Shown piece after piece: positions 8,590 to 63,681 of a DNA stretch of 64,000 nucleotides. Origin of the DNA: Escherichia phage Es2; sequence record OR515477.1. The stretch is one strand, 5' to 3'. The notes beneath the pieces are model-generated. The model had not been told where the DNA came from. It was given only the letters and a program-made list of their open reading frames with translations, and did not search any database. A program made the position numbers and the translations under genes. Positions within the stretch are counted from its first letter, which is position 1. Every line of letters starts with the position of its first letter.

Positions 8590-8982
8590 TCATTCATCAT
8601 TTAATCCCGGAACATAGATCCCAACACGGCTTAATTGTTCTTTAGCTTCTGCGAGAATATCTGGAGTGTACTCCCAAATATCATCTTCCACCCGTAAAAG
8701 ATGGGGTGAACAACCATCATCCGGCACACGACATATGGCCAGACCACGTGGATGGAACAAAGAGAAATTTAGGGCAACAATCAAGCCCATAGCAGACAAT
8801 TCATTCCAATCCAATTCCCGTTCCCCGGCATATCCAGACAGGAAAACACCAATGCAGGGGTCATCTATTTGCTGCTCCGGAAAAGTGAAGGAGGCTTGTC
8901 TTACCCCCAACCAACGTTGTAGTAGCTTCTCCGCACGTCTCACCAAACTAGGGTCAATCTGACGCCAATATACTTGTTCCAT
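8590..8982 (-). CDS. hypothetical protein, paralog of 8992-9420
   Basis: Shares PCIG, W.EL..MGL..ALN..LF.P and G..VPGL blocks with the adjacent ORF. Confidence 0.55.
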   Translation of the reverse strand: MEQVYWRQIDPSLVRRAEKLLQRWLGVRQASFTFPEQQIDDPCIGVFLSGYAGERELDWNELSAMGLIVALNFSLFHPRGLAICRVPDDGCSPHLLRVEDDIWEYTPDILAEAKEQLSRVGIYVPGLNDE

Positions 8983-8991
8983 TCTGCCTCC

Positions 8992-9420
8992 TTAAGCAGT
9001 TAAACCTGGGATCATATACCCGAAACGTCGAAGTTTCTGAATCCCCTCATTTACTTCTTCCGGTGAGTAAGACCAACCATAACGTTCATTAACCTGAAAA
9101 CCAGGAGATTCACTAGTCTTATAGTTAACAACGAGGCGATGCTTAGCAGGCATAAACAGCTTATAGTTTAACGCAAAAACTAAGCCCATTTCATCTAGCT
9201 CTTTCCAGCCCACAATCTCTTCAAGACCATCCTCTACCTGCACAATTAAACCAATACATGGGGCCTCATCAATATCATCTTTAAAAGCAAAGGAGATTTC
9301 GTTATTCTCACACCATATTTTCAAAAAGTTAATAGCCTCATTATACAGGCTAGCCGGGAGAGTACGCCAAAAGTTAACCAAAATTGGGTTAGCTTCTTTA
9401 GAGAATACATTATTGAACAT
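8992..9420 (-). CDS. hypothetical protein, paralog of 8590-8982
   Basis: Tandem paralog; same conserved blocks. Confidence 0.55.
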   Translation of the reverse strand: MFNNVFSKEANPILVNFWRTLPASLYNEAINFLKIWCENNEISFAFKDDIDEAPCIGLIVQVEDGLEEIVGWKELDEMGLVFALNYKLFMPAKHRLVVNYKTSESPGFQVNERYGWSYSPEEVNEGIQKLRRFGYMIPGLTA

Positions 9421-9422
9421 AC

Positions 9423-9929
9423 TTACACCTTAAATTGTTGTAAGGATTTACACATTTCAAGATCTGGGCTAAATTCTAGCATATAGCTAACAGCTTTTAA
9501 ATCTTGAAGATTTACCCCAGTCCTACCATTGACTATAACCGTTGGATACTGGTACATCATAGCACCAGCATCATCCAGCACACACCAATGTTTGAGCTTA
9601 TGCTTTTCAACGAAGCGAAGAACAGAATTACCCCTAGATAATCCACCCCCGGTAAAATCCGTTGTACCAAGAAAACGATCGATAAGACCTAATCCGGTCA
9701 TAATCTGAACGTTCTCCATCTCATTTCTGACAGAGAACCAAGATGATACCCCAACAATCATTATTGAAGAGGGACGAATAAAATCCTGAAAAGCCTTGAG
9801 AAGTGGCTTAAAAACCCAATCACTTCCGAAGAAGATCTTTTCATCATCCGGCGCATGGTGGTGCGAGATGCTCGAATTGAGCACCCCATCAATATCTAGA
9901 AAAATAACTGGAGTATTACTTATTTCCAT
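9423..9929 (-). CDS. HAD-superfamily phosphatase-like protein
   Basis: N-terminal FLDIDGVLN (DxDG[TV] HAD motif I). Confidence 0.55.
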   Translation of the reverse strand: MEISNTPVIFLDIDGVLNSSISHHHAPDDEKIFFGSDWVFKPLLKAFQDFIRPSSIMIVGVSSWFSVRNEMENVQIMTGLGLIDRFLGTTDFTGGGLSRGNSVLRFVEKHKLKHWCVLDDAGAMMYQYPTVIVNGRTGVNLQDLKAVSYMLEFSPDLEMCKSLQQFKV

Positions 9930-10098
9930 TTTTGTTCCTTTCTAAGAACGTATCATACTCAACCGTATCAACATATATGACACCATAGTCATCGGATTTA
10001 TAGTCCATTTCCCACAGCTCACAGCGATAACACCAACTACCATCCGCCCATACAAATATATCATCGGGATGTGTATATACAGATTTAACTATAGACAT
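9916..10098 (-). CDS. hypothetical protein
   Basis: 60 aa ORF overlapping neighbours by a few nt (coupled). Confidence 0.4.
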   Translation of the reverse strand: MSIVKSVYTHPDDIFVWADGSWCYRCELWEMDYKSDDYGVIYVDTVEYDTFLERNKNGNK

Positions 10099-10913
10099 AT
10101 TTGTTTCCCTGGCATATAAGGTCTACCCTCTAAATGAGCTTCCACACGAGCAATAAAATCAGGATCACTGAAAGCATCTACCGCACCTTTACTCCAGTAA
10201 GGGATACCACGTTCTTCCAACTGGTACATCTCACTACGAGTCATACCTTGATAGCCGGGCTCCGCTGCTAGAGCACTATCATAGTAGTTAACAACCATAA
10301 GTTTCGCAGCAGTCAAATTAAGAACAGGAAATAATTCCCAGTAGAAGTTAATTACTTGGTTAGAACAACCAACTACAATAATCATATCTTGACTGGTAAT
10401 ACTGTCAAAAACATTATACATTTCTGTGTATGCAGGAGCATGCTCTCCAAAGAAGATTACATTAGGTTTAACCCATTTATAATCATCTGGATCAATAGAA
10501 TTGTATCCTACGTCAATAATCCGTTTATTGCTACTATTATAGCTATCAGCTACAATAATCTCTTTTAAATATCCGTGAATGTGCAGAATGTCACTATGTG
10601 GAACGCCAGCACGTTCAATAAGGTCATCAACGTTAGTAGTCAAGTTTACTACTTGACCTGGATATTGTTTATACCATTCACCAATACGCAAATGCGCAAG
10701 ATTGGGTTCAACAGTTTTTAGCTCTTCACGACGTTTATTGTAAAATGCGTGAGTTTTATGATAAAAGTTACCACGAAAGGCATGAATATTACATACCTCT
10801 TCTAGATCATAATCATCCCACAATGCCTTACCGCTAGCAGTATCCGTACGGAAGGCTCGTACACCACTTTCAACGCTCAAACCTGCACCACTAATAATAA
10901 TTAATCTACGCAT
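10089..10913 (-). CDS. Sir2-family (sirtuin-like) NAD-dependent protein
   Basis: ISGAGLSVESGVRAFR (GAGIS..SGIP.FR-like), TNVDDLIERAG (TQNID.LH..AG-like) and HIHG motifs. Confidence 0.7.
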   Translation of the reverse strand: MRRLIIISGAGLSVESGVRAFRTDTASGKALWDDYDLEEVCNIHAFRGNFYHKTHAFYNKRREELKTVEPNLAHLRIGEWYKQYPGQVVNLTTNVDDLIERAGVPHSDILHIHGYLKEIIVADSYNSSNKRIIDVGYNSIDPDDYKWVKPNVIFFGEHAPAYTEMYNVFDSITSQDMIIVVGCSNQVINFYWELFPVLNLTAAKLMVVNYYDSALAAEPGYQGMTRSEMYQLEERGIPYWSKGAVDAFSDPDFIARVEAHLEGRPYMPGKQICL

Positions 10914-53822: not shown

Positions 53823-54532
53823 TTAAAGAAGCCGAAAAATTAAAACGTCTCATCCAGCTAGCGCGGGGTGCTACACAAAAGAGTCTTTCCCAGCTAACTA
53901 ATGAAGAAAAATATGCAGTAATGTTTTTAGGAGATCATTATCCTGCTAGGTGGGATAAAGGTAAGATCAAGTATGATCGTGATGCAAAACAAGTTGTTTG
54001 GTCAGGCTCATATGTAGAAGTGAATAAAGCATTAAAGGCTTTAGATCCTGAAGCAAAAGGTTTCTCTTCTAATGCTATTCATATTCTAATTGATGAAGAT
54101 CTCCCAAGATTTAAGGAAGCATCATTTAAAGAAGCATTAGCTAGTGAAGATCTTATTCCTTTTAAACACGGTAAGTATGCACATCTTCCACCACTAGAAA
54201 AAGAGAAACCTACTCTAGTTAAAGATGAAGTTTATCGTGGGATTGGCACAATGCTAGCGAGTTTGACTGTAGCTCTCCATAAAGATCTAGAGTTAACGCC
54301 CCTAGAAAACGCTGTGCATTTCATGTGCCATAAGTACGAGGATACATTTAAAGAGCTATGTAAGTCGCTAGGAATGCCAAGTTACACGATATTAAACTAT
54401 GCTCCTGAATATACTAGAGCAGCTCGTGGAACTATGGATTACGATGATACAGGATCCACTGCTTCCTATTTAGCAACTTATATCTACTTCGCATCCTTAG
54501 GTATCAAACTCAAATCCAAGAAGGAGGAATAA
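53819..54532 (+). CDS. hypothetical protein
   Basis: 237 aa ORF; last gene before the repeat region. Confidence 0.5.
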   Translation: MIKEAEKLKRLIQLARGATQKSLSQLTNEEKYAVMFLGDHYPARWDKGKIKYDRDAKQVVWSGSYVEVNKALKALDPEAKGFSSNAIHILIDEDLPRFKEASFKEALASEDLIPFKHGKYAHLPPLEKEKPTLVKDEVYRGIGTMLASLTVALHKDLELTPLENAVHFMCHKYEDTFKELCKSLGMPSYTILNYAPEYTRAARGTMDYDDTGSTASYLATYIYFASLGIKLKSKKEE

Positions 54533-54547
54533 AAGTTAACAAAAAGT

Positions 54548-54576
54548 TCTTGCATTCTCATACCCAAACATGTTAT
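54548..54576 (+). promoter_or_regulatory. sigma70-like promoter (TTGCAT, 17 bp, TATAAT)
   Basis: ttcTTGCATtctcatacccaaacatgtTATAATaatc. Confidence 0.5.
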
Positions 54577-54582
54577 AATAAT

Positions 54583-54750
54583 CTCATAGATTAACAACTA
54601 CTCTAGTTGATTAACTCTAGGGGCGATGATTATTACACGAATGTCTCGTATAGCTTGCGGCCTAGCAACAGCGGTATGACGGCATGAGTACTCACGTAAT
54701 TAATCACGCGCCCACAGGAGAGACTCTCATGAAATTGGGGGTCTCTTTTT
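54583..54750 (+). ncRNA. candidate small RNA unit (promoter to terminator, no ORF)
   Basis: Bounded by promoter 54548-54576 and hairpin AGAGAC...GTCTCT plus TTTTTCTTT (~54713-54750); internal inverted repeat TTAACAACT...AGTTGATTAA. Confidence 0.35.
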
Positions 54751-55042
54751 CTTTATATTATTTAAATATTTTTAATGGCAATATCTGTGTTCAAGATGAT
54801 ACACCTGTTGCCGCTCATCTGCTAGGATGGCACAACACTTTCTTCTAGACTCCTAAGTTTCTAGGAATAGTTGAGCACTAACTCTAGAGTTTACATTAAA
54901 CTTTAAATCTGTTTCTCTAGTCAACTCAGGCGGTTTTCATATTCCTAGAAACTCTAGCAATAGGCGGTTAATACAGGGCGGTTTTAGGGAGGGCGGTTAT
55001 TTCTAGAAGACATTTTTTGAAAACACATTTCTAGAAATTACT

Positions 55043-55643
55043 GTCGTATTTGCACACTGCATTTCTAGAAATTTATGGTCGGATTTGCACAAACGCCTAA
55101 GTTTTTAGGAACATATAATCTCTTGAAAATGGCAGCATTATTTCGGGCCGAAGGCCCGTGATTGCCTGAGTTTTTAGAGCCACAAGAATTTTCACTTGTC
55201 AAGCTATTTTGCCCCATTTAGCAAATAAAATTTTACTTTATCTCCTCTAATCTCAAATTAACCCAAATCTTCTCAACTCTTCCCCAAAATACCCGCAAAT
55301 CAGGTGCTCCGCACCAAACATGCGCCTCTCCCACAGTTCCCCCAAAATTTCTCTCGCTCTCTCAACTTCTCCCCAAACATACACAATCACACACCCTCCA
55401 ATCGAAGCCACAAAAATCTTGTCGGATTCGCACATCTTAATCCTAGAAAAACCGTGTCGGATTTGCACATACCCCACAGGATTCGAACGCAGTTCGAGAT
55501 TGCTGGAGTTTTTAGGAAAATTCATTGTCGGATTCGCACACTATAAAAATTTTTCGGGTCGGATTTGCACACTACCAAAAATTGTCGGATTCGCACATAC
55601 ACGCCCGCACGTAACACCCGTGGAGCAATGTCGGATTTGCACA
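55043..55643 (+). repeat. eight dispersed copies of a 14 bp motif GTCGGATT(T/C)GCACA
   Basis: Copies at about 55043, 55078, 55421, 55456, 55527, 55558, 55584 and 55630; interspersed TTCTAGAA palindromes and GGCGGTT repeats. Confidence 0.7.
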
Positions 55644-55646
55644 AAA

Positions 55647-55668
55647 GCGCAGGGCAATTGCCCTGCGC
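55647..55668 (+). repeat. perfect palindrome GCGCAGGGC-AATT-GCCCTGCGC
   Basis: 9 bp arms with 4 nt centre; read directly. Confidence 0.8.
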
Positions 55669-55669
55669 T

Positions 55670-55900
55670 AAATGAGAATAAAAATAAGAATCATTCTCAT
55701 TTAGAAAGCGGAATGAGAATGATAATAATTCGCATTTAGAAAGCGAAATGAGAATCAATCTCATTTAAGAACGGAAACGAAAATTATTCAGGAAGTGAAA
55801 CGATTCTCATTTAGAAAGTGGAATGATTCTCATTTAGAAAGTGGAATGCAAATGATAATGATTCGCATTTAAGAATGGAAGTGAGAAACACTGTTATTTA
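55670..55900 (+). repeat. tandem ~28-30 bp direct repeats (CTCATTTAGAAAG[CT]GGAATGA-like), about 6 units
   Basis: Repeated ATTCTCATTTAGAAAGCGGAATGAGAATGA-like units with variants; no ORF. Confidence 0.7.
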
Positions 55901-56010
55901 AGTTATCCACAGACTTATCAACAGCACGATTTGACTTGACAAAATTCTAGCCATTTTGAGGCGTTATCAACAGACTTATCAACAGCTTATCCTACTGTAT
56001 AAATATACAG
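55881..56010 (+). repeat. left composite inverted repeat (IR-A and IR-B) with DnaA-box-like TTATCCACA
   Basis: IR-A 55881-55918 is 37/38 identical to the reverse complement of 59205-59242; IR-B 55971-56010 is 38/40 identical to the reverse complement of 59113-59152. Confidence 0.75.
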
Positions 56011-56207
56011 TATTCCTATGCAGTGAATAATTCTAATATACAGCTAAAACGCTCTCAAACGCATTCTAACGCGTTTAATTTTGGTGGGGATACTAAAACA
56101 CGGGCAAAATTGGAGGAGGCTTAGAAATTAGTTAGCTCGCTAACGATCACACAAGGCGACACGTAACATCCTAACCATTAGCAGGCTAACCATCGCGGGC
56201 GCGGTCA

Positions 56208-56228
56208 AATGAGAATGATTCTCATTTG
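56208..56228 (+). repeat. palindrome AAATGAGAAT-G-ATTCTCATTT
   Basis: 10 bp perfect arms; same half-site as the 55670-55900 repeats. Confidence 0.75.
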
Positions 56229-56378
56229 AGAATTGGGGGCACTTCCTGATAGTTGCGCCCCGTGATTATTACAGTAGTGGGCAACCTTTACGCTTTGCCC
56301 ATTCCCGCCACTCATCTTGATGTCTAGACTTGCGACGGCGTACTAAAAACCATTTATACCAGTGATTAAACCATCGTT

Positions 56379-56582
56379 TCATAAATCCTCCTCCGGTAGT
56401 CGGTGCGTGATTTTTTCCTCCTCTCCGTAGGAATCCACTAAATGCTGATAATAACCATCGTGATCATAAATCACTTTATCATATTCGCCACGCTCGACCG
56501 CTTGTCGGTTTTCCGGCGTATCTGGCACGTAAAAAACATCAACCATTGTACTGATTTTGGTTACAACAATTTTATTGCTCAT
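56379..56582 (-). CDS. hypothetical protein
   Basis: 67 aa; last gene of the inverted-repeat-bounded block; GGAG RBS. Confidence 0.45.
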   Translation of the reverse strand: MSNKIVVTKISTMVDVFYVPDTPENRQAVERGEYDKVIYDHDGYYQHLVDSYGEEEKITHRLPEEDL

Positions 56583-56607
56583 AATAACGCTCCGTTATTA
56601 TATAATC

Positions 56608-56952
56608 TCATTGTGCCACCTTTCGAAACGCTGTTTCAATACTTTCCGCAGTTGACTGAATATACGCGCCTTTCATGATCAGGCGCTCAGTGCATACCTT
56701 ACGGAAGATATTAATAAAATCATCTTCATTTTCTGCAATTAACGCTTCACCCATAACCTGAACGTCACAAGATGCAAAGGTCAAAAATTGAAACGCTAGT
56801 TCACGGGCAACGACCTCATTGATTTTATAATGCGCCTTGCCCTCATAAATATTAATAACGCCCTTATATGTTGGGGAAAGCTGATTTAAATAATTTGCTA
56901 ATAATGCTGGGCGGCAATTAGCAATAAAACGATTGCCTTCATAAATAACCAT
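56608..56952 (-). CDS. hypothetical protein
   Basis: Start MVIYEGNRF after GGGAGG; 114 aa. Confidence 0.5.
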   Translation of the reverse strand: MVIYEGNRFIANCRPALLANYLNQLSPTYKGVINIYEGKAHYKINEVVARELAFQFLTFASCDVQVMGEALIAENEDDFINIFRKVCTERLIMKGAYIQSTAESIETAFRKVAQ

Positions 56953-57079
56953 TTGACAGCCTCCCAATTAGATAGCCAGATAATAACATAAAGATCCCCA
57001 ATGAAAGGGGGTCATTTTTAAATAGGGTGGCGGTAAAACCGCCAGCCATTGCAAGGATGATAACAATAACGCTTTTCAT
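56942..57079 (-). CDS. small hydrophobic peptide
   Basis: 45 aa (MKSVIVIILAMAGGFTATLF...), ATGA coupling to the upstream gene; below track cutoff. Confidence 0.35.
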
Positions 57080-57288
57080 AGTACCCCACGAAACGCAGCG
57101 TAAAAGGTGGCAAAATGTTTAACTGTTTCAGCTATCACGTTGCCGCGCTTGTCAAATTTCTTTTCTGTAACACGAAAGGCATTCTTATTACGTGCTACAT
57201 ATTCAATTTTACAATCTTCCCGCTCGAACGTGTTAACATCCACCAGCTTAAAGCCTTTCGAACGTGCAAGAGAAACATTGCGGATCAT
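57076..57288 (-). CDS. hypothetical protein
   Basis: 70 aa; AGGAGAATAA RBS. Confidence 0.5.
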   Translation of the reverse strand: MIRNVSLARSKGFKLVDVNTFEREDCKIEYVARNKNAFRVTEKKFDKRGNVIAETVKHFATFYAAFRGVL

Positions 57289-57290
57289 TT

Positions 57291-57446
57291 TTATTCTCCT
57301 TTACTAGTCATGCAGCCCAGCAGATAAGAAAATGCAGCGATACCCGCGCCAATAATAACCGCGTGAACACCGAAAGCTATTGCAAAAAGGGATAAAATAG
57401 CGCCCAAGATACCTGCTAGAATAGCTCGAAAAATAACCATTTTCAT
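57291..57446 (-). CDS. small hydrophobic peptide
   Basis: 51 aa (MKMVIFRAILAGILGAILSLFAIAFGVHAVIIGAGIAAF...), GGAGA RBS; below track cutoff. Confidence 0.35.
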   Translation of the reverse strand: MKMVIFRAILAGILGAILSLFAIAFGVHAVIIGAGIAAFSYLLGCMTSKGE

Positions 57447-57486
57447 TCTCCTAGTTTGCGGGGCGAAAGTAACGCCCCGTTATTAC

Positions 57487-57717
57487 TTACATTAAAACAA
57501 TTTTTGCCGCTTGTTTTTTAGTACAGTGTTCCGCTTTCAGGGTATCCAGCAAAAAGCCGGCCGTTTGCTGATCGATTTTATCGGCGTTGTATAGTTCTTG
57601 GATGGTGTTATAAGTTTTAGCAATGCCGAACTCCTGCACCATTTCATGAATGATGGCGCGATTAGATACCCAGCCTTGCGCGGTGAACAGATGACTAGCA
57701 GAAGAATAAGCAACCAT
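57487..57717 (-). CDS. hypothetical protein
   Basis: Start MVAYSSASH after GGAGGT; 76 aa. Confidence 0.5.
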   Translation of the reverse strand: MVAYSSASHLFTAQGWVSNRAIIHEMVQEFGIAKTYNTIQELYNADKIDQQTAGFLLDTLKAEHCTKKQAAKIVLM

Positions 57718-57781
57718 TTTAAACCTCCAAATTTTTGGGAAAATTTTCAACCGTCCTCAAACGGTGTAAAGGCATTATAAC

Positions 57782-57810
57782 AAAAAAGGTCGCCATAAAA
57801 GGCGACCTTT
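57782..57810 (-). terminator. rho-independent terminator (hairpin usable on both strands)
   Basis: AAAGGTCGCC-ATAAAA-GGCGACCTTT with A/T runs on both sides. Confidence 0.65.
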
Positions 57811-57835
57811 ACAAAACTTTACATTAGATTATTTA

Positions 57836-58846
57836 TTACTCGTTTTCGGTGTTAGTGGTAAAAGTAGAAATATCGATACCTTTTACCATTTCATCAATCA
57901 TTTCAGCGATGTTAAAACTTTGCACCATTTCCAACATTGCCGCTTCCATAGCTGCCCCTGCTACCGCTTTCGCTTTCTGGTTGCTTGGGGCATACTGGTC
58001 AACCGCTACGCTCAGCAGGTTGGCAATTACTACTCGACCGATAGGCGTATCAATATAACCTTTAATCATGAACGGTGCTTTTTTAGCCGCTACTTTCGTA
58101 ATTTGAGTCAGTGCAATTTTACCCGCTTCCAGTTTTGCAGCGTTTACAACGGCGGATTTATTAGCGGCAACGATGTTAGCAATCTTGGTCATGGTATTTT
58201 TTCCTTTATTTTCAGTGATTTGAGTATTAACGCTTTGAGTGTTAGAATTTACAGCATGGTTTTCTACGCTGTCAATAATCTGATCTTCATCTTTCCAGAA
58301 AGAAAAACCAGCGCTTTCTATATCCCCATCATAAATATACGGGTATAGCTCCCGTGGTAACAAAAAATTACCGTCGCCATCAAAAGCCATTATACCGGTA
58401 TATTGAGATCCGTCGTTATCCGGCTTATACCATCCAGCGGGTAAATACTTCCAGATAACATCTAAAAATCCCTCAATGCTAGAAAGTCCATTTATCAGAT
58501 CAAGCCCAATAAGCTCAAAACCATTTATATTAAATGATTGACGGCCTGAATTGCTATGATACGCAACAATAGTATTGCCCTGCGCAACAATAAAATCGGT
58601 ATCCGGCCCCGCTCCCCTGCCCGTAAAGATATGGCAATCCCGATTATGTAAAACTAGCGTTGCCCCTTGCTTATATAAGGGTAGAAAACTATCCATATCA
58701 TAGGCGTCATATTCATCAAAAAAGTTTTGATGAATAGTTTCAACCTTGTTAATAAAATGTTTAATGCTGGTTGACTTGCTACCGTCCAGCAGGTTACGCA
58801 ATGCACCTTTTAAGACGGTTGCGTTATCTGGTTTATAAAGCCTCAT
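57836..58846 (-). CDS. hypothetical protein (336 aa)
   Basis: AGGAGG RBS; GC-richer codon usage than the surrounding phage genes; no recognisable motif. Confidence 0.55.
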   Translation of the reverse strand: MRLYKPDNATVLKGALRNLLDGSKSTSIKHFINKVETIHQNFFDEYDAYDMDSFLPLYKQGATLVLHNRDCHIFTGRGAGPDTDFIVAQGNTIVAYHSNSGRQSFNINGFELIGLDLINGLSSIEGFLDVIWKYLPAGWYKPDNDGSQYTGIMAFDGDGNFLLPRELYPYIYDGDIESAGFSFWKDEDQIIDSVENHAVNSNTQSVNTQITENKGKNTMTKIANIVAANKSAVVNAAKLEAGKIALTQITKVAAKKAPFMIKGYIDTPIGRVVIANLLSVAVDQYAPSNQKAKAVAGAAMEAAMLEMVQSFNIAEMIDEMVKGIDISTFTTNTENE

Positions 58847-59112
58847 TTGTTCGGCCTCCTCGTTAATCGGTGAGTGAATGATAAAGGTATTTTCTTTCTA
58901 GGGGCAAATATTATTTTACCTTTTTATTTTCTTTGCCTAACTCCTAGTTTTATGCTAATCGCGCAGCGGTACAGTAAAGAGCAAAACACGGCGAAGCCAC
59001 CAGGGCGACGGGTGAAGGCTTTACTTTAATATTACCCCACTGCATTTAGCTCGTTAGAAAGCGATTTAGGCCGCTTAAAATTGATTGCAGTTGTTAACAC
59101 TACCTTTTTACC

Positions 59113-59242
59113 CTGTATATTTATACAGTAGGATAACCTGTGGATAAGTCTGTGTAAAAGTCCTTATATCGCCGCCTATCATGTCAAGTTATTTTACAAA
59201 ATGTATAAGTCTGTGGATAACTTAAATAATAGTGTTTCTCAC
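59113..59242 (+). repeat. right composite inverted repeat (IR-B' and IR-A') with two TGTGGATAA DnaA-box-like sites
   Basis: Reverse-complement match to 55881-56010. Confidence 0.75.
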
Positions 59243-59410
59243 TAACTAATTTATGCAGTTATTATATCGTAAAATATAGTTAGTTGGCTAATAGGATTTT
59301 AAAGTGATTATGAGTCCGCTAATTAAACCTGAAAAACTCATTAGCTAGTCTGCTAATCATTTTGATATAATATAATAGAGATTAAATTAATAACATAAGG
59401 AAACAATTAG

Positions 59411-59929
59411 ATGCCTAAATATAAACATATAGATTATGACCTTTTTAATAGTTACTTTTATTATGATGAAACATCGTTATCATTTTTACGCTGGCGAGAA
59501 GATCATGCCATCGCTGGTGGTTTAAATGGTAATTATTGGCAAGTTGAATTATTAGATAAAGGACAATTCAAAGTACATAGAATTATTTTTTGTATAATGA
59601 ATGGTGGTATAGATAGCGAGCTAATGATTGATCATATTGATCGTAACCCCCGTAATAATAACATTTGGAATCTTCGCGCGGTTGATAGTTCCCAGAATAA
59701 CTATAATAAGACTCCTAGTGAGTATGAAAACTATAAGCGTGCTAATGGTATCCCTAGAAACATTTACGTTAATAAAATTCGCCCCCGTGATAGTTTCGGG
59801 CGTGATTATTTAACTGCTCAAATTAAGAATCCTATTACTAACAAGCGTGTTAGTAAGTCTGGTTATGATTTACAAGAGTTATTATTATGGCTTGAAGCTA
59901 AAAAAGCTGAATTCGGAATTGTCAATTAA
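59411..59929 (+). CDS. HNH endonuclease
   Basis: DHIDRNPRNNNIWNLRAV HNH motif; AAGGAAAC RBS. Confidence 0.65.
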   Translation: MPKYKHIDYDLFNSYFYYDETSLSFLRWREDHAIAGGLNGNYWQVELLDKGQFKVHRIIFCIMNGGIDSELMIDHIDRNPRNNNIWNLRAVDSSQNNYNKTPSEYENYKRANGIPRNIYVNKIRPRDSFGRDYLTAQIKNPITNKRVSKSGYDLQELLLWLEAKKAEFGIVN

Positions 59930-60875
59930 TTTATTTTATAAATTAACTCGTTTAGTCTTGATTTTTAAAAGTCAAGACCTTTTTCAACTATTTTTCAATT
60001 TTGCGGTTGTTAAATATTTGTTAAACCGAAAATAAGCCGCCTAAAACGCCCCAGAACGCGATGAAAGTTTTAGTCATGCCATTGCATTGCCTACCCTCGT
60101 TTATCGCTACCACGAGCTTTTTAGATTTTGTCAAGTAGGGGAAAGCAAATATAAATGAAAAAATTACTTGCCTATCTGCTATGTTTTGTGGTATTCACGC
60201 GCCCGTTTCTTTTAATTTTAGTGTGCCGCGCCCTAGTCGCCGCACGCCGTCCGGTGAATCGTGTCTTTACGTTTCTTTACAAAAATAAGGTTGCGCCATT
60301 TTCGGGAATCCCCTATTATTTATCACGTAGGGCGGCAATGACGAACTACACGGCGGGAAGTTTACCGCCACGCTCTTTAAAAATTGGGTATATCTTAAAG
60401 CCTATCGGCGGTAAACTTATTCATTATAAGGAATCGACGATATGAAACAAACGCTTTTGATAACTGGTAAACCAGCTAAAAAATTAGATGGTACTACTAA
60501 AAAATTGTTGACAGTAGCGCAAAGATCCATAAGATATAGATTCACGCAGTACAAGAAAGGCCGCCAGCAAGGTTTAGAAATGATCTGGCGAAATATTATG
60601 ATTGACCTGAAAGAAAATCATAAAAAACTGCAAAAAATTGTTTGACACCCTAGCCGATAGGCTTTAAGATGTACCCAGTTCGATGAGAGCGATAACTTGA
60701 TACAATTTGACGGTCGGTGCTTACCATAATGCATCCCGCCCCCTAACTGGGATATAGCGGCCTGAGTGGAGTTCTTTAAATTGATTATAATGGCGAGCGG
60801 ATTGTTACTTATTACCTGCTACTATTTTCTAGTAGGTAATGCGAAACAATCCCCTAAATAACTGGAGTTTATACT

Positions 60876-61127
60876 ATGCAAAACGTTACTAATGCGCCGA
60901 AAATTGGTCAATCCGTTTTTATCCCTTTCGTTACCAAAACGGATGAATTAACCGGAAAAGCCGAACGTATTAAAGGTGCGGCGCTTATGCCGTTCGATAC
61001 AATCGACGCGGTATACGCTGAAAATGAACGCAGTAACAACGGCAAGCCGATTTATAACGTTCGCGTTAAATCCGGCGACGTTGTAAAGGTTGTTCAACGC
61101 AACGAAAAATGGGAAGCTGTACTGTAA
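60876..61127 (+). CDS. hypothetical protein
   Basis: 83 aa ORF with TGGAG RBS. Confidence 0.5.
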   Translation: MQNVTNAPKIGQSVFIPFVTKTDELTGKAERIKGAALMPFDTIDAVYAENERSNNGKPIYNVRVKSGDVVKVVQRNEKWEAVL

Positions 61128-61225
61128 TCTAGTGTTAACTTTATATTCCCCTGAAATATGGGGAATATAACGATTAACATTAGTTAATCATAATCCCTTA
61201 AATTAAACTAATAGGAGTTTATATC

Positions 61226-61633
61226 ATGACTAACGCAAAAACCGCAAAATTCGCATGGAATGAAGAAAACACCCAAAAAGCTGTTACCATGTACCAGCAG
61301 TTAATCAACGAAAACGGTTTAGATTTCGCAAATAGTGACGGGCTGAAAGAGATTGCAAAAGCAGTAGGCGCGGCTTCTCCCGTATCCGTTCGCTCAAAAT
61401 TGACCAGTGCAAAAGCCTACCAGAAAAGCGATAAGCCGCGTAAAGTTGGCGGCGGCAGTTCTGTACGCAAAGCGCATTATGTGCGTGTTATTGCTAAACA
61501 TGCCATTGATTCCGGCATTATCAAAGACGCTGACGATCTGGCATCACTGGAAAGTGCAAAACTTGAAACGCTGGACGCGGTAGCGCAATTGCTAGGCGTT
61601 GCCGATGAAGTGAAACAAGCCGCAGGCGAATAA
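61226..61633 (+). CDS. hypothetical protein
   Basis: 135 aa ORF with AGGAG RBS. Confidence 0.5.
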   Translation: MTNAKTAKFAWNEENTQKAVTMYQQLINENGLDFANSDGLKEIAKAVGAASPVSVRSKLTSAKAYQKSDKPRKVGGGSSVRKAHYVRVIAKHAIDSGIIKDADDLASLESAKLETLDAVAQLLGVADEVKQAAGE

Positions 61634-61722
61634 TAGTTATACATTGCCCTTCCTAGTGGGAGGGCAATAATATAACTGTTTAGCGATAGTTATTTTCTTC
61701 CCTTAAATCAGGAGTTTTAAAA

Positions 61723-61920
61723 ATGATTTTCTTTCCTACTGAATCATTAATTTTAGGCTTGTTTATTATGGCGGCCTCATTATTGTTCGCTTATTTTCAA
61801 AATGATTTAGATTCATATTATTTTAAACGTAAATCTAAGTTAGCAAAGCGTTTAGGTCTGATTTGTTTTATTGCCGCCGTTGCTTGTGGTGTTAGTTCTA
61901 GCCTTATGCCTTTAAATTAA
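61723..61920 (+). CDS. small membrane protein
   Basis: 65 aa, two hydrophobic segments. Confidence 0.45.
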   Translation: MIFFPTESLILGLFIMAASLLFAYFQNDLDSYYFKRKSKLAKRLGLICFIAAVACGVSSSLMPLN

Positions 61921-62016
61921 TGTTGCAAATTATAACGCCTATTATTCAAGGCGTTATATTTGGCAATATTTGCCAATAACAAACGTTTTTTAATCCCTTT
62001 AATGGAGTTTATTACT

Positions 62017-63681
62017 ATGATTATTTCCGCAGAAAAACAAACCGTTATCCTGAAAATGGCCGCTGACTTTAATTTCTATGGTAAACGTCTGCGCGCCACT
62101 AAACTGGAGGTCTGCGACGATATATCAAAAGCGGTCTACGATACAACAAAACACTCGACCGCCATTTGTGATTGGCTGGAAGCAAATAAACCAGTTAAAC
62201 CAAAAGCTGCAAAAGTAGCAAAAGCTATTAAAAACGATGAGCGCCCCGAAGCGGCTGGGATCGTTTCTAGCACGGTTGAACAGTGGGAAGTAAAACAAGG
62301 CAAACGCTTTATTATTACGTCGATTCAGAATAATACTTTCCCGCATAAAAACTTTTTGGCCTCGCTTGAACAGTATGCTAAATACATCGGCGCTGATTTG
62401 CTTGTTTCTAAGTATATTTATAATAAAAACGGCTTCCAAAATGGTGAAGGTGCGGATGGAATCAAATATGATTCCGCGTTCGATAAGTATATTTGCAGCA
62501 AAAACGTGTTTTTAAACAACCGCCGTTTTGCTTTCATGGCTGAAATTAACGTTTTGCCTACCGCAGATTATCCGCTTTCTGGATTCGCTGAAACTGCAAC
62601 GGCGCTTAATCTTGAAGGTCTGGCAATTGGTCACGCTAAAATCACCGCCGAAAGCGTGCCAGCTTTAAAAGGTGAAGTAGTACGCCGCATGTACTCAACC
62701 GGAACGGCAACGCTAAAAAACTACATTCAGCAGAAAGCAGGGCAAAAAGCGGAAGCGCTGCATAACTTCGGTGCGCTGATTGTTGAGTTCGACGAAGACG
62801 GTGAGTTTTTTGTACGCCAGCTTGAAACAATGGACGAAAGCGGGGTGTTTTATGATCTGAATGTTTGCGCTACTCCCGCAGGATGCTATGAAACATCGGG
62901 GCATGTTTTAGGTTTACAATATGGCGACATCCACGCAGAAAAATTAGATGATGATTGTGCCGTTGCGTCATGGGCTGGCGAAAATAGCTTGCTTGATATT
63001 CTTAAACCAAAATATCAGTTTATCCATGACGTTCACGATTTTACATCTCGCAATCATCATAATCGTGCGTCCGGTGTATTCCTAGCGAAACAGTACGCCG
63101 CCGGACGTGATAAAGTTCTGGATGATCTTATCGATACGGGGCGCGTGCTGGAATCAATGGAACGTGATTTTAGTCAAACGATCATTGTTGAATCGAATCA
63201 CGATTTGGCGCTATCCCGTTGGCTGGATGATCGTAATGCTAACATTAAAGACGATCCAGCAAACGCCGAACTATATCACCGCCTGAATGCTGCAATTTAC
63301 GCGGCAATCGGTGAACACGACGAAACGTTTAACGTGTTAGATTATGCGCTGCGCAAGGTTGCAGGTTGCGAGTTTAACGCCATTTTCCTAACAACTGACC
63401 AATCATTTAAAATTGCAGGCATCGAGTGTGGCGTACACGGTCACAACGGCATTAACGGAAGCCGTGGCAATCCTAAACAGTTTAAGAAATTGGGCAAACT
63501 GAACACGGGGCATACGCATACGGCAAGCATTTACGGCGGGGTATACACCGCTGGCGTGGCTGGTAGTCTGGACATGGGTTACAACGTTGGCGCGTCAAGC
63601 TGGACGCAAACGCATTTAATTACCTATGCAAACGGTCAGCGCACTTTGATTGACTTTAAAAACGGTAAATTCTTTGCGTAA
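62017..63681 (+). CDS. A1: A1-like pre-early protein with calcineurin-like phosphoesterase motifs
   Basis: GDIHAE, ESNHD, GHNG and GHTHT metallophosphoesterase motifs; size ~554 aa; gene symbol assigned by analogy to T5 A1 from memory. Confidence 0.5.
   Translation: MIISAEKQTVILKMAADFNFYGKRLRATKLEVCDDISKAVYDTTKHSTAICDWLEANKPVKPKAAKVAKAIKNDERPEAAGIVSSTVEQWEVKQGKRFIITSIQNNTFPHKNFLASLEQYAKYIGADLLVSKYIYNKNGFQNGEGADGIKYDSAFDKYICSKNVFLNNRRFAFMAEINVLPTADYPLSGFAETATALNLEGLAIGHAKITAESVPALKGEVVRRMYSTGTATLKNYIQQKAGQKAEALHNFGALIVEFDEDGEFFVRQLETMDESGVFYDLNVCATPAGCYETSGHVLGLQYGDIHAEKLDDDCAVASWAGENSLLDILKPKYQFIHDVHDFTSRNHHNRASGVFLAKQYAAGRDKVLDDLIDTGRVLESMERDFSQTIIVESNHDLALSRWLDDRNANIKDDPANAELYHRLNAAIYAAIGEHDETFNVLDYALRKVAGCEFNAIFLTTDQSFKIAGIECGVHGHNGINGSRGNPKQFKKLGKLNTGHTHTASIYGGVYTAGVAGSLDMGYNVGASSWTQTHLITYANGQRTLIDFKNGKFFA

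What the first reader, a model, noticed from the sequence alone, without database searches (positions are those of the whole stretch)
55881..59242. 3.1 kb GC-richer gene block bounded by ~130 bp composite inverted repeats carrying DnaA-box-like sites
Two inverted-repeat pairs bracket the segment. IR-A at 55881-55918 is 37/38 identical to the reverse complement of 59205-59242, and IR-B at 55971-56010 is 38/40 identical to the reverse complement of 59113-59152, so the ends are arranged A..B [cargo] B'..A'. Each IR contains TTATCCACA or its complement. The enclosed block carries seven minus-strand ORFs, two of them small hydrophobic peptides joined by ATGA overlaps, with visibly higher GC and different codon usage from the flanking phage genes, and no recognisable recombinase. 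The architecture fits an invertible or mobile segment, a small DnaA-dependent origin, or a horizontally acquired module (the small coupled hydrophobic peptides are reminiscent of toxin or abortive-infection cassettes).
Basis: seen in the sequence. Interest (0 to 1): 0.75.

Follow-up and report, generated by a model that had tools for sequence, protein, structure and literature searches.

The report
Known T5 injection-stop inverted repeats
The two inverted repeats are real, but they are the long-described DnaA-box repeats of T5-like phages that flank a dispensable early host-takeover operon beside the DNA "injection stop" region, not a mobile element, switch or replication origin.

Summary
Two ~131-bp composite inverted repeats (55881-56012 and 59113-59243; a 38-nt arm, a 52-bp spacer, a 40-nt arm) bracket a 3.1-kb minus-strand gene block.

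The window is a T5-like phage. The repeats are 90-93% identical to T5's own IRC-spacer-IRD and IRD'-spacer-IRC', described in 1987, 2005, 2015 and 2020 with their paired DnaA boxes. They lie in the first-step-transfer terminal repeat, and the left copy sits inside the annotated injection stop signal.

The cargo is T5 genes 011-017. These genes are dispensable, and three of them (011, 013, 015) are toxic when expressed alone. The block is not a compositional island.

No recombinase is present. The arm sequence is absent from E. coli genomes and plasmids. None of 577 matching phage records carries the inverted isomer.

Two additions come from this work. First, the whole cassette lies in the opposite orientation in Sugarlandvirus and Mccorquodalevirinae, with gene order preserved, so it has flipped on an evolutionary timescale. 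Second, the cargo-proximal end of each arm carries a near-consensus LexA (SOS) box that is conserved across genera and that I did not find mentioned in the literature I could search.

The function is still untested. Host-protein binding at the injection stop is the leading hypothesis.

The parts
55880..55918 (.). Left arm, outer sub-repeat (T5 IRC'). It contains the small palindrome AGTGAGAAACACT and the first DnaA box.
   Evidence: 39 nt, 97% complementary to 59205-59243. 93% identical to T5 9409-9540 over the whole arm.
55903..55923 (+). DnaA-box pair 1 of the left arm: TTATCCACA-GAC-TTATCAACA.
   Evidence: The 3-bp spacing matches the pairs described by Davison.
55919..55970 (.). Left 52-bp spacer, with the conserved TTGACA at 55936-55941.
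   Evidence: The 52-bp spacer length matches the published constant. TTGAC is kept in 33/33 left arms and 32/33 right arms.
55964..55984 (+). DnaA-box pair 2 of the left arm: TTATCAACA-GAC-TTATCAACA (both are one-mismatch variants).
55993..56012 (.). LexA (SOS) box-like palindrome TACTGTATAAATATACAGTA at the cargo-proximal end of the left arm (inner part of T5 IRD').
   Evidence: 19/20 match to the consensus taCTGTatatatatACAGta. Only two such sites occur in the window, against 0.15 expected. Conserved in 30/33 left arms.
56013..56100 (.). Degenerate inner extension of the left repeat. It carries terminator-like hairpins on both strands and marks the end of the 011-017 operon.
   Evidence: In Sugarlandvirus and DU_PP_V it lies next to the opposite arm.
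56208..56226 (.). Perfect palindrome AATGAGAATGATTCTCATT. It belongs to the same repeat family as the injection-stop-region repeats at 55680-55870.
   Evidence: 7 copies against 0.12 expected.
56269..56382 (-). 37-aa ORF that overlaps the stop of the T5.017 homologue by ATGA. Whether it is coding is uncertain.
   Evidence: No PHROG family matched.
56379..56582 (-). 67-aa homologue of T5.017.
   Evidence: 90% identical to T5. Matches phrog_6973.
56608..56952 (-). 114-aa homologue of T5.015, probably the Ung-dependent AP-site nickase.
   Evidence: 93% identical to T5.015. UniProt names T5.015 a DNA-(apurinic or apyrimidinic site) endonuclease. Mahata 2021 describes the activity.
56939..57079 (-). 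46-aa hydrophobic ORF. It is absent from T5 itself but present in many relatives.
   Evidence: phrog_19184.
57076..57288 (-). 70-aa homologue of T5.014.
   Evidence: 100% identical to T5.014. Matches phrog_4227, whose nickase label probably belongs to T5.015 instead.
57291..57446 (-). 51-aa homologue of T5.013, a two-transmembrane peptide.
   Evidence: T5 gp013 is toxic and compromises membrane integrity.
57487..57717 (-). 76-aa homologue of T5.012.
57836..58846 (-). 336-aa homologue of T5.011 (DUF7566).
   Evidence: Pfam PF24450, E 1e-113. 90% identical to T5.011. Toxic on expression, with nucleoid disorganisation.
58858..58930 (-). Promoter region of gene 011. It lies inside the repeats.
   Evidence: 92% identical to the promoter annotated at T5 6411-6483, which a preprint reports as experimentally characterised.
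59020..59112 (.). Degenerate inner extension of the right repeat.
59111..59130 (.). LexA-box-like palindrome of the right arm (CTGTATATTTATACAG at 59113-59128).
   Evidence: Conserved in 28/33 right arms.
59139..59159 (-). DnaA-box pair of the right arm (T5 IRD): TTTTACACA-GAC-TTATCCACA.
59153..59204 (.). Right 52-bp spacer, with TTGACA on the minus strand at 59183-59188.
59205..59243 (.). Right arm, outer sub-repeat (T5 IRC), with TTATCCACA on the minus strand at 59212-59220.
   Evidence: 90% identical to T5 6099-6228 over the whole arm.

Best explanation
These are the two copies of the conserved ~131-bp composite repeat of T5-like phages (family Demerecviridae). The right copy is IRC-52 bp spacer-IRD (T5 'Repeat Region 2'). 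The left copy is its inverse, IRD'-spacer-IRC' (T5 'Repeat Region 3', inside the annotated injection stop signal). Both lie in the terminal repeat, which enters the cell first.

Shown here:
- Each copy is a set of conserved short motifs: an outer small palindrome, two pairs of DnaA-type 9-mers set 3 bp apart, an invariant TTGAC(A) in the spacer, and a near-consensus LexA-type palindrome at the cargo-proximal end. A degenerate extension of about 90 bp with terminator-like hairpins follows.
- The motifs are kept while the rest of the spacer drifts independently in each arm.
- Between the copies lies a self-contained accessory pre-early transcription unit (promoter, genes 011-017, terminator). 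It varies in gene content between relatives.

Reported in the literature: the unit is dispensable in T5, and genes 011, 013 and 015 are toxic when expressed alone.

Inferred:
- The arms are binding modules for host proteins on the newly injected DNA. DnaA is the candidate proposed by Davison, and the sequence suggests LexA as well.
- The left module helps build the nucleoprotein or membrane complex at which DNA entry pauses.
- The right module is a non-essential second anchor or boundary.
- Because the modules are inverted homologous sequences and the cassette carries its own promoter and terminator, recombination between them has flipped the cassette at least once in the family's history without harm.

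My confidence that these are the known T5 repeats is about 0.97. My confidence in the host-protein-binding and injection-stop role is about 0.4.
For: Identity: megablast finds 530 phage records, all T5-like. The T5 annotation places the left arm inside the misc_feature 'injection stop signal' and the right arm between hegG and T5.011. The window arms are 93% and 90% identical to the T5 arms. Davison's description of a 131-bp repeat with a 52-bp spacer and box pairs 3 bp apart matches exactly.

Conservation: both arms are present in 37/37 T5-type loci that reach far enough upstream. The distance between arms ranges from 1.7 to 4.1 kb.

Selection on motifs rather than on arm-to-arm homology: left-right identity is 0.749 within a genome and 0.746 between genomes. 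It is 0.896 in motif columns and 0.48 in non-motif spacer columns.

LexA-type palindrome: 19/20 match to the consensus. It is kept in Tequintavirus and Epseptimavirus, Sugarlandvirus, My1, DU_PP_V and PM135.

Self-contained unit: the mapped 011 promoter lies at 58858-58930, and terminator-like hairpins lie at 56043-56076, both inside the arms.

Cargo is accessory: a T5 mutant deleted from hegG to 017 is viable, and 011, 013 and 015 are toxic.

Inversion between genera: both flanks are collinear and the interior is reversed. Homologues of 011 (E 2e-44), 015 and 017 keep their order.
Against: No experiment has shown that DnaA, LexA or any other protein binds these sites or that they stop injection; the BF23 paper says functional studies are lacking. 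About half the boxes are one- or two-mismatch variants. The right arm is missing in PR1-type phages, and the viable T5 hegG-017 deletion probably removes it, although I could not see the deletion boundaries. The pairing of the two arms is therefore not essential. The sigma-70 promoter scan gives only weak candidates next to the palindromes, so a classical LexA-operator arrangement is not demonstrated.
Confidence: 0.7

Rival explanations
1. The arms are transcriptional operators or insulators for the accessory pre-early operon. Host DnaA or LexA, or phage A2, binds both ends. This times or confines expression of the toxic genes 011-017, possibly by looping, and plays no part in stopping DNA injection.
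For: LexA-type palindromes bracket the operon in every genus that has it, even where the right-arm DnaA boxes are lost, as in PM135. Terminator-like hairpins sit just inside the left arm. The cargo is toxic. Weak inward-facing promoter-like sites abut the palindromes, for example 59158-59130. The right arm is too far from the shear point to act as the stop site itself.
Against: The characterised 011 promoter lies about 185 bp from the palindrome and does not overlap it. The left arm lies inside the mapped injection-stop region. No expression data bear on the question.
Confidence: 0.25
2. A programmed invertible segment, like the Mu G or P1 C segments or Salmonella hin. It would flip at appreciable frequency within a phage population to switch gene expression.
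For: Inverted repeats flank a gene block, and both orientations exist among genera.
Against: No serine or tyrosine recombinase lies in or near the block. None of 577 records carries the inverted junction. All 37 close loci share one orientation. The arms are not homogenised. The block carries its own promoter, so flipping would not switch its expression.
Confidence: 0.03
3. A mobile element or horizontally acquired island bounded by terminal inverted repeats.
For: The ends are inverted repeats. Cargo content varies between relatives. The neighbour is a homing endonuclease.
Against: There is no transposase and no flanking direct duplication. The arm is absent from all complete E. coli genomes and from PLSDB plasmids. 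It is always at the same locus. GC and codon use are typical of pre-early genes. The arms stay conserved while the cargo changes, which is the reverse of what a transposed unit would show.
Confidence: 0.03
4. A small DnaA-dependent replication origin.
For: There are clusters of DnaA boxes in two opposed arrays. An AT-rich stretch lies beside the right arm (59243-59410, GC 0.24).
Against: T5 origins were mapped near the genome centre, and replication genes are not on the first-step-transfer DNA (Davison). The hegG-017 deletion is viable. The AT-rich stretch belongs to the hegG insertion, which most relatives lack.
Confidence: 0.05

Closest known systems
Bacteriophage T5 IRC-spacer-IRD (Repeat Region 2) and IRD'-spacer-IRC' (Repeat Region 3, injection stop signal), described by Heusterspreute 1987, Wang 2005 and Davison 2015/2020
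   Same: Same locus, same 131-bp layout with a 52-bp spacer, same paired DnaA boxes 3 bp apart. Sequence identity to the T5 arms is 90-93%, and the cargo is the same (T5.011-017).
   Different: Only allelic detail differs. The window keeps the second box of the outer right arm in degenerate form, has an extra 46-aa ORF, and lacks T5.016. The centre of the left palindrome is in the opposite orientation to T5's.
E. coli oriC and datA-type arrays of DnaA boxes
   Same: Closely spaced, same-orientation 9-mers matching TTWTNCACA, arranged as two opposed arrays.
   Different: The arrays are 3 kb apart. No evidence exists for a DNA-unwinding element or for initiation. The location is pre-early phage DNA that carries no replication genes.
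Invertible segments of phages Mu (G) and P1 (C) and Salmonella hin
   Same: A gene block between inverted repeats that is found in both orientations.
   Different: There is no invertase gene and no hix/gix-type crossover sites. No population polymorphism is seen; the orientation differs only between genera.
LexA (SOS) operators of Gammaproteobacteria
   Same: A 20-bp palindrome matching taCTGTatatatatACAGta at 19/20 positions, with CTGT and ACAG conserved and an A/T-only centre.
   Different: It does not demonstrably overlap a promoter. It occurs as an inverted pair bracketing an operon on a virulent phage. Binding is untested.
Phage 'moron' cassettes (promoter-gene-terminator accessory units)
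   Same: A self-contained, dispensable, variable transcription unit that encodes host-directed functions.
   Different: It is a multi-gene operon bracketed by conserved repeat modules, in a virulent phage's first-injected DNA.

Membership tests
T5-type first-step-transfer inverted repeats (IRC/IRD and IRD'/IRC') | Located in the terminal repeat of a T5-like phage, between the A1/A2 operon side and the non-coding injection-stop region | tested here: met
   A2 and A1 lie to the right, and the inner end of the terminal repeat maps to about 55177.
T5-type first-step-transfer inverted repeats (IRC/IRD and IRD'/IRC') | About 131 bp, composed of a 38-nt arm, a 52-bp spacer and a 40-nt arm, present as two inverted copies | tested here: met
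   The spacers are 55919-55970 and 59153-59204, both 52 bp, as stated.
T5-type first-step-transfer inverted repeats (IRC/IRD and IRD'/IRC') | DnaA or near-DnaA boxes in pairs separated by 3 bp, two pairs per copy | tested here: met
   Seven clear boxes are present; the eighth is degenerate (TTATACATT).
T5-type first-step-transfer inverted repeats (IRC/IRD and IRD'/IRC') | Sequence homology to the T5 arms themselves | tested here: met
   93.2% over 132 bp for the left arm and 90.1% over 130 bp for the right arm.
T5-type first-step-transfer inverted repeats (IRC/IRD and IRD'/IRC') | Acts in stopping DNA injection | not testable with these tools
   This is a hypothesis only. states that experimental studies are lacking.
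Site-specific invertible segment (Gin/Hin/Cin type) | An adjacent invertase or recombinase gene | tested here: not met
   Pfam scans of all cargo and neighbouring proteins found only DUF7566, DUF7177, DUF7416 and HNH_3.
Site-specific invertible segment (Gin/Hin/Cin type) | Both orientations present among closely related genomes or within a population | tested here: not met
   0 of 577 records carry the inverted junction, and 37/37 loci share one orientation. Within-stock heterogeneity cannot be tested here.
Transposable element or composite transposon | A transposase, target-site duplication, and copies at unrelated loci | tested here: not met
DnaA-dependent replication origin | A cluster of DnaA boxes | tested here: met
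DnaA-dependent replication origin | Replication initiates there, with an unwinding element | not testable with these tools
   The literature places T5 origins mid-genome. The region is deletable.
LexA operator | A CTGT-N8-ACAG palindrome close to the consensus | tested here: met
LexA operator | Overlaps a promoter and is bound by LexA | tested here: inconclusive
   Only weak promoter-like sites lie adjacent. Binding cannot be tested here.
Toxin-antitoxin or abortive-infection cassette | Similarity to known defence-system proteins | tested here: not met
   PADLOC gave no hits for seven cargo proteins.

The most novel reading that the evidence does not exclude
The arms are composite landing pads for two abundant host proteins, DnaA and LexA. 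The conserved pair of SOS-box palindromes was not mentioned in the T5 literature I could search. Under this reading they are functional LexA sites that bracket the accessory pre-early cassette. They would tie its expression, or the nucleoprotein complex at the injection stop, to the host's SOS state. They would also provide the homology by which the cassette has flipped between genera.
Probability: 0.3. Interest if true: 0.6.

Novelty: already known. Interest (0 to 1): 0.3.

Why it matters
What halts T5 DNA entry at 8% of the genome, and what restarts it, has been open since Lanni's 1968 model. These repeats are the main sequence candidates, yet no binding or mutational test has been published. 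The finding itself adds nothing to the published description.

The follow-up gives two concrete handles.
- A near-perfect SOS box at each end of the cassette is conserved across at least four genera. This makes LexA, as well as DnaA, a testable host partner.
- The block previously described as 'replaced' in Klebsiella and Pectobacterium relatives is the same operon inverted between the repeats. This shows that orientation is neutral and that the repeats, not the cargo, are the conserved element.

Tried and rejected
- AlphaFold2 on the 336-aa gene 011 homologue, using a 15-sequence alignment of 76-96% identity (the only homologues I was allowed to submit), gave mean pLDDT 54.8. I ran no fold search because the matches would be meaningless.
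- PDB sequence searches with the 336-aa and 114-aa proteins found nothing significant.
- Rfam found nothing above the gathering score in 54500-60500.
- PADLOC found nothing.
- The sigma-70 scan found 26 promoter-like sites against 16.8 ± 4.0 expected. That is too unspecific to assign promoters at the palindromes.
- Davison's 2015 review is not held in the library, so I cannot exclude that the LexA-like palindrome or the inversion is mentioned there or in the 1987 and 2005 papers.
- I tried to polarise the inversion. The divergent orientation is found in T5-types, PM135 and PR1. The co-directional orientation is found in Sugarlandvirus, My1 and DU_PP_V. A1, A2 and Dmp identities place PM135 outermost and T5 closest to Sugarlandvirus. 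That would require two flips, but four taxa and raw identities are not a phylogeny, so I claim only at least one.
- I considered an essential 'LexA cleavage releases the stop' mechanism and rate it unlikely. The right arm is dispensable, and A2 mutants degrade host DNA yet still fail second-step transfer.
- I considered gene conversion between the arms and rejected it. Left-right identity within a genome equals that between genomes.

Full report
**What is in the sequence**

The repeats are real. The repeat finder reports arms 55880-55918 and 59205-59243 (39 nt, 97% complementary) and arms 55934-56010 and 59113-59189 (77 nt, 77%). A pairwise alignment of the two ends shows one composite repeat of about 131 bp, made of a 38-nt arm, a 52-bp spacer and a 40-nt arm. 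The longest exact inverted match is 25 nt, against a mean of 11.8 and a maximum of 15 in 100 shuffles.

TTATCCACA occurs four times in the 64-kb window against 0.74 expected, and three of the four are in the arms. With one-mismatch variants included there are seven clear boxes, arranged as pairs 3 bp apart. The left inner arm has TTATCAACA.

The enclosed 3,102 bp hold seven or eight minus-strand ORFs, including two small hydrophobic ones and two ATGA overlaps.

The 'GC-richer' claim does not stand up as a mark of foreign origin. The block has GC 0.409 against a window mean of 0.390 (sd 0.015 for windows of this size), and 10% of such windows are as high. Cargo GC3 is 0.378 against 0.322 ± 0.065 for all ORFs, and the codon-usage distance is in the 7% tail. 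The other pre-early genes to the right (A2, A1, the 007 homologue) have GC3 of about 0.43. The visual contrast comes from the AT-rich arms (GC 0.32-0.35) and from the homing-endonuclease gene and its upstream gap (GC 0.24-0.33).

**Where it is**

Megablast of 55600-59500 finds 530 phage records, all T5-like, at 80-93% identity. Against the T5 reference (NC_005859) the window is the reverse complement of the left end of the genome.
- The HNH gene hegG lies at 59411-59929, A2 at 61226-61633 and A1 at about 62002-63681.
- The inner end of the terminal repeat maps to about 55177, and the major nick to about 55647.
- The cargo ORFs are homologues of T5.011, 012, 013, 014, 015 and 017 at 65-100% amino-acid identity.
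- The left arm corresponds to T5 9409-9540 at 93.2% identity. That lies inside the feature annotated 'injection stop signal (iss)', 9140-10149.
- The right arm corresponds to T5 6099-6228 at 90.1%, between hegG and T5.011.

**It is already described**

Davison's preprint 'Phage T5 two-step injection' (10.1101/866236) names these two elements IRCspacerIRD (Repeat Region 2) and IRD'spacerIRC' (Repeat Region 3). It credits the 1987 sequence of the injection-stop region and the 2005 genome paper. It reports that almost all of 25 T5-like phages have eight DnaA or near-DnaA boxes in pairs separated by 3 bp, that the spacer is always 52 bp, and that the distance between the copies varies from 1.85 to 4.26 kb. 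All of this matches the window.

Davison proposes that membrane-bound DnaA binds the boxes and stops DNA entry. The BF23 genome paper notes that experimental studies of these sites are lacking. A 2026 PNAS paper still describes the mechanism as poorly understood.

**The cargo**

- The 336-aa protein belongs to Pfam DUF7566 (E 1e-113). The others match only PHROG families of unknown function, except phrog_4227.
- No cargo protein matches a defence-system model. No recombinase or transposase is present in the cargo or its neighbours.
- Mahata et al. 2021 found 008, 011 and 015 toxic and showed that 015 is an Ung-dependent AP-site nickase.
- A 2026 preprint (10.64898/2026.04.02.716235) adds that 013, the two-transmembrane peptide, is toxic and compromises membrane integrity. 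It reports that a T5 mutant deleted from hegG to 017 is viable with smaller plaques, and that a promoter upstream of 011 has been characterised.
- That promoter maps to 58858-58930, inside the right arm. Terminator-like hairpins lie at 56043-56076, just inside the left arm. The block is therefore a self-contained, dispensable, pre-early host-takeover operon.

**Comparative analysis of the arms**

I fetched 40 loci around A2 homologues and seven further annotated stretches. Both arms are present in every T5-type locus that extends far enough, 1.7-4.1 kb apart. The cargo is always on the strand opposite A2.

An alignment of 33 left arms and 33 right arms shows what is conserved in both:
- the outer palindrome AGTGAGAAACACT;
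- the two box pairs;
- TTGAC(A) in the spacer (33/33 left arms and 32/33 right arms);
- a 16-20-bp palindrome, CTGTATAWWTATACAG, at the cargo-proximal end (exact CTGT and ACAG ends in 30/33 left arms and 28/33 right arms).

Left-right identity is 0.749 within a genome and 0.746 between genomes. It is 0.896 in motif columns and 0.48 in the remaining spacer columns. The arms are therefore not being homogenised by recombination. The repeat is maintained by selection on short motifs, which is the signature of protein-binding sites.

**The palindrome looks like an SOS box**

Window 55993-56012 reads TACTGTATAAATATACAGTA. That is a 19/20 match to the E. coli LexA-box consensus taCTGTatatatatACAGta. 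Only two such sites occur in the window, one per arm, against 0.15 expected.

The palindrome is kept in Sugarlandvirus, My1, DU_PP_V and PM135. In PM135 the right side has lost its DnaA boxes but keeps TACTGTATAAATAAACAGTA. Its A/T centre is found in either orientation in either arm, which fits a symmetric dimer that reads the outer half-sites.

Davison's preprint never mentions LexA or SOS. Two full-text searches found no paper that links T5 with a LexA or SOS box. The 1987, 2005 and 2015 papers are not held in the library, so I cannot claim priority. Binding is untested, and the known 011 promoter does not overlap the site.

**The cassette has been inverted between genera**

In Klebsiella phages (KpGranit, and loci L040 to L042, whose contig lengths suggest Sugarland and IME260) and in Pectobacterium phages (My1, DU_PP_V), every pre-early gene is on the A1/A2 strand. 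blastn of the window against these loci shows both flanks collinear, the arms matching in both senses, and the interior matching on the opposite strand.

The interior genes are homologues in conserved order. The 011 homologue shows 36% identity with E 2e-44. The C-terminal half of 015 matches with E 1e-6. In My1 the 017 homologue shows 51% identity. The degenerate inner extension that lies beside the left palindrome in T5-types lies beside the right palindrome in these phages. Everything between the palindromes has therefore flipped.

[quoted passage not shown] The data here show an inversion of the same operon. PM135 and PR1 have the T5 orientation. With T5 closest to Sugarlandvirus by A1, A2 and Dmp identity, two events are likely, but only one is secure.

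- A synthetic 'inverted-junction' query (left flank + arm + the reverse complement of the right interior) matches 577 phage records, but none over more than 63% of its length. No sequenced close relative carries the flipped isomer.
- The arm sequence is absent from 5,426 complete E. coli genomes and 72,556 plasmids.
- No known RNA family is present.
- An origin function is contradicted by the mid-genome origins cited by Davison and by the viable deletion.

**Verdict**

It is wrong about mobility, an origin and foreign composition. 'Invertible' is right only in an evolutionary sense.

The feature is the known T5 injection-stop-associated inverted repeat pair. The best mechanistic reading is that the arms are host-protein binding modules, with the left one contributing to the injection pause. 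That reading remains inference. The LexA-type palindromes and the cassette inversion are modest additions that make the old question more testable.

Noticed in passing
window 55993-56012 and 59111-59130; same position in L001-L046: A near-consensus LexA (SOS) box lies at the cargo-proximal end of each arm. It is conserved across Tequintavirus and Epseptimavirus, Sugarlandvirus, Myunavirus, Hongcheonvirus and Novosibvirus, and it was not mentioned in the T5 literature I could search.
   Followed up: partly
L041 4438-8223; L043 (KpGranit); L044 (DU_PP_V); L046 (My1): The IR-bounded cassette is inverted relative to T5-types with gene order preserved. The literature had described it as a replacement by unrelated ORFs.
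   Followed up: yes
window 55995-56010 compared with L001 (T5) and other loci: The A/T centre of the palindrome (AAAT or ATTT) occurs in all four left/right combinations among genomes. T5 itself has the same centre orientation in both arms. This suggests loop inversion by template switching within the palindrome.
   Followed up: partly
window 55680-55870 and 56208-56226: Repeated palindromes such as TGATAATGATTCGCA and TGAGAATGATTCTCA resemble the Fur-box 7-1-7 motif TGATAATNATTATCA. Three of the four window matches with two or fewer mismatches lie here, against 0.94 expected window-wide. T5 uses the Fur-regulated receptor FhuA. I did not test this further.
   Followed up: partly
window 57076-57288 (70 aa) and 56608-56952 (114 aa): There is an annotation conflict. 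RefSeq and PHROG 4227 label the 70-aa T5.014 homologue as the Ung-dependent nickase. UniProt gives that name to the 114-aa T5.015, the gene named in the 2021 paper. The 70-aa protein is called 'ORF015' in another T5 record, so a numbering mix-up is likely.
   Followed up: yes
window 56269-63681: All pre-early genes have higher GC3 (0.38-0.44) than the rest of the phage (mean 0.32). A possible reason is that they must be translated before the phage's own tRNA genes enter with the second-step DNA.
   Followed up: partly
window 59243-59929: The homing-endonuclease gene hegG (HNH_3) and its AT-rich upstream region sit immediately outside the right arm. The gene is present at about 95% identity in some relatives and absent from many others.
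   Followed up: partly
window 55037-55643: About ten copies of TGTCGGATT(T/C)GCACA (the published DRD repeats) fill the non-coding region at the inner boundary of the terminal repeat (about 55177). No binding protein is known.
   Followed up: no
window 55646-55668: The palindrome GCGCAGGGCAATTGCCCTGCGC coincides with the position homologous to the major single-strand interruption of T5 (T5 9748/9749).
   Followed up: no
window 56939-57079; T5 8681-8938: Cargo content differs from T5. The window has an extra 46-aa hydrophobic ORF, which is absent from T5 but present in many relatives, and it lacks T5.016.
   Followed up: partly
window 56013-56100 and 59020-59112: The inverted repeat continues inward for about 90 bp in degenerate form (shared blocks CCTAAAACGC, TTCTAACG, GGGGATAYTAAA). 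The full repeat is therefore about 220 bp, not 131 bp.
   Followed up: partly
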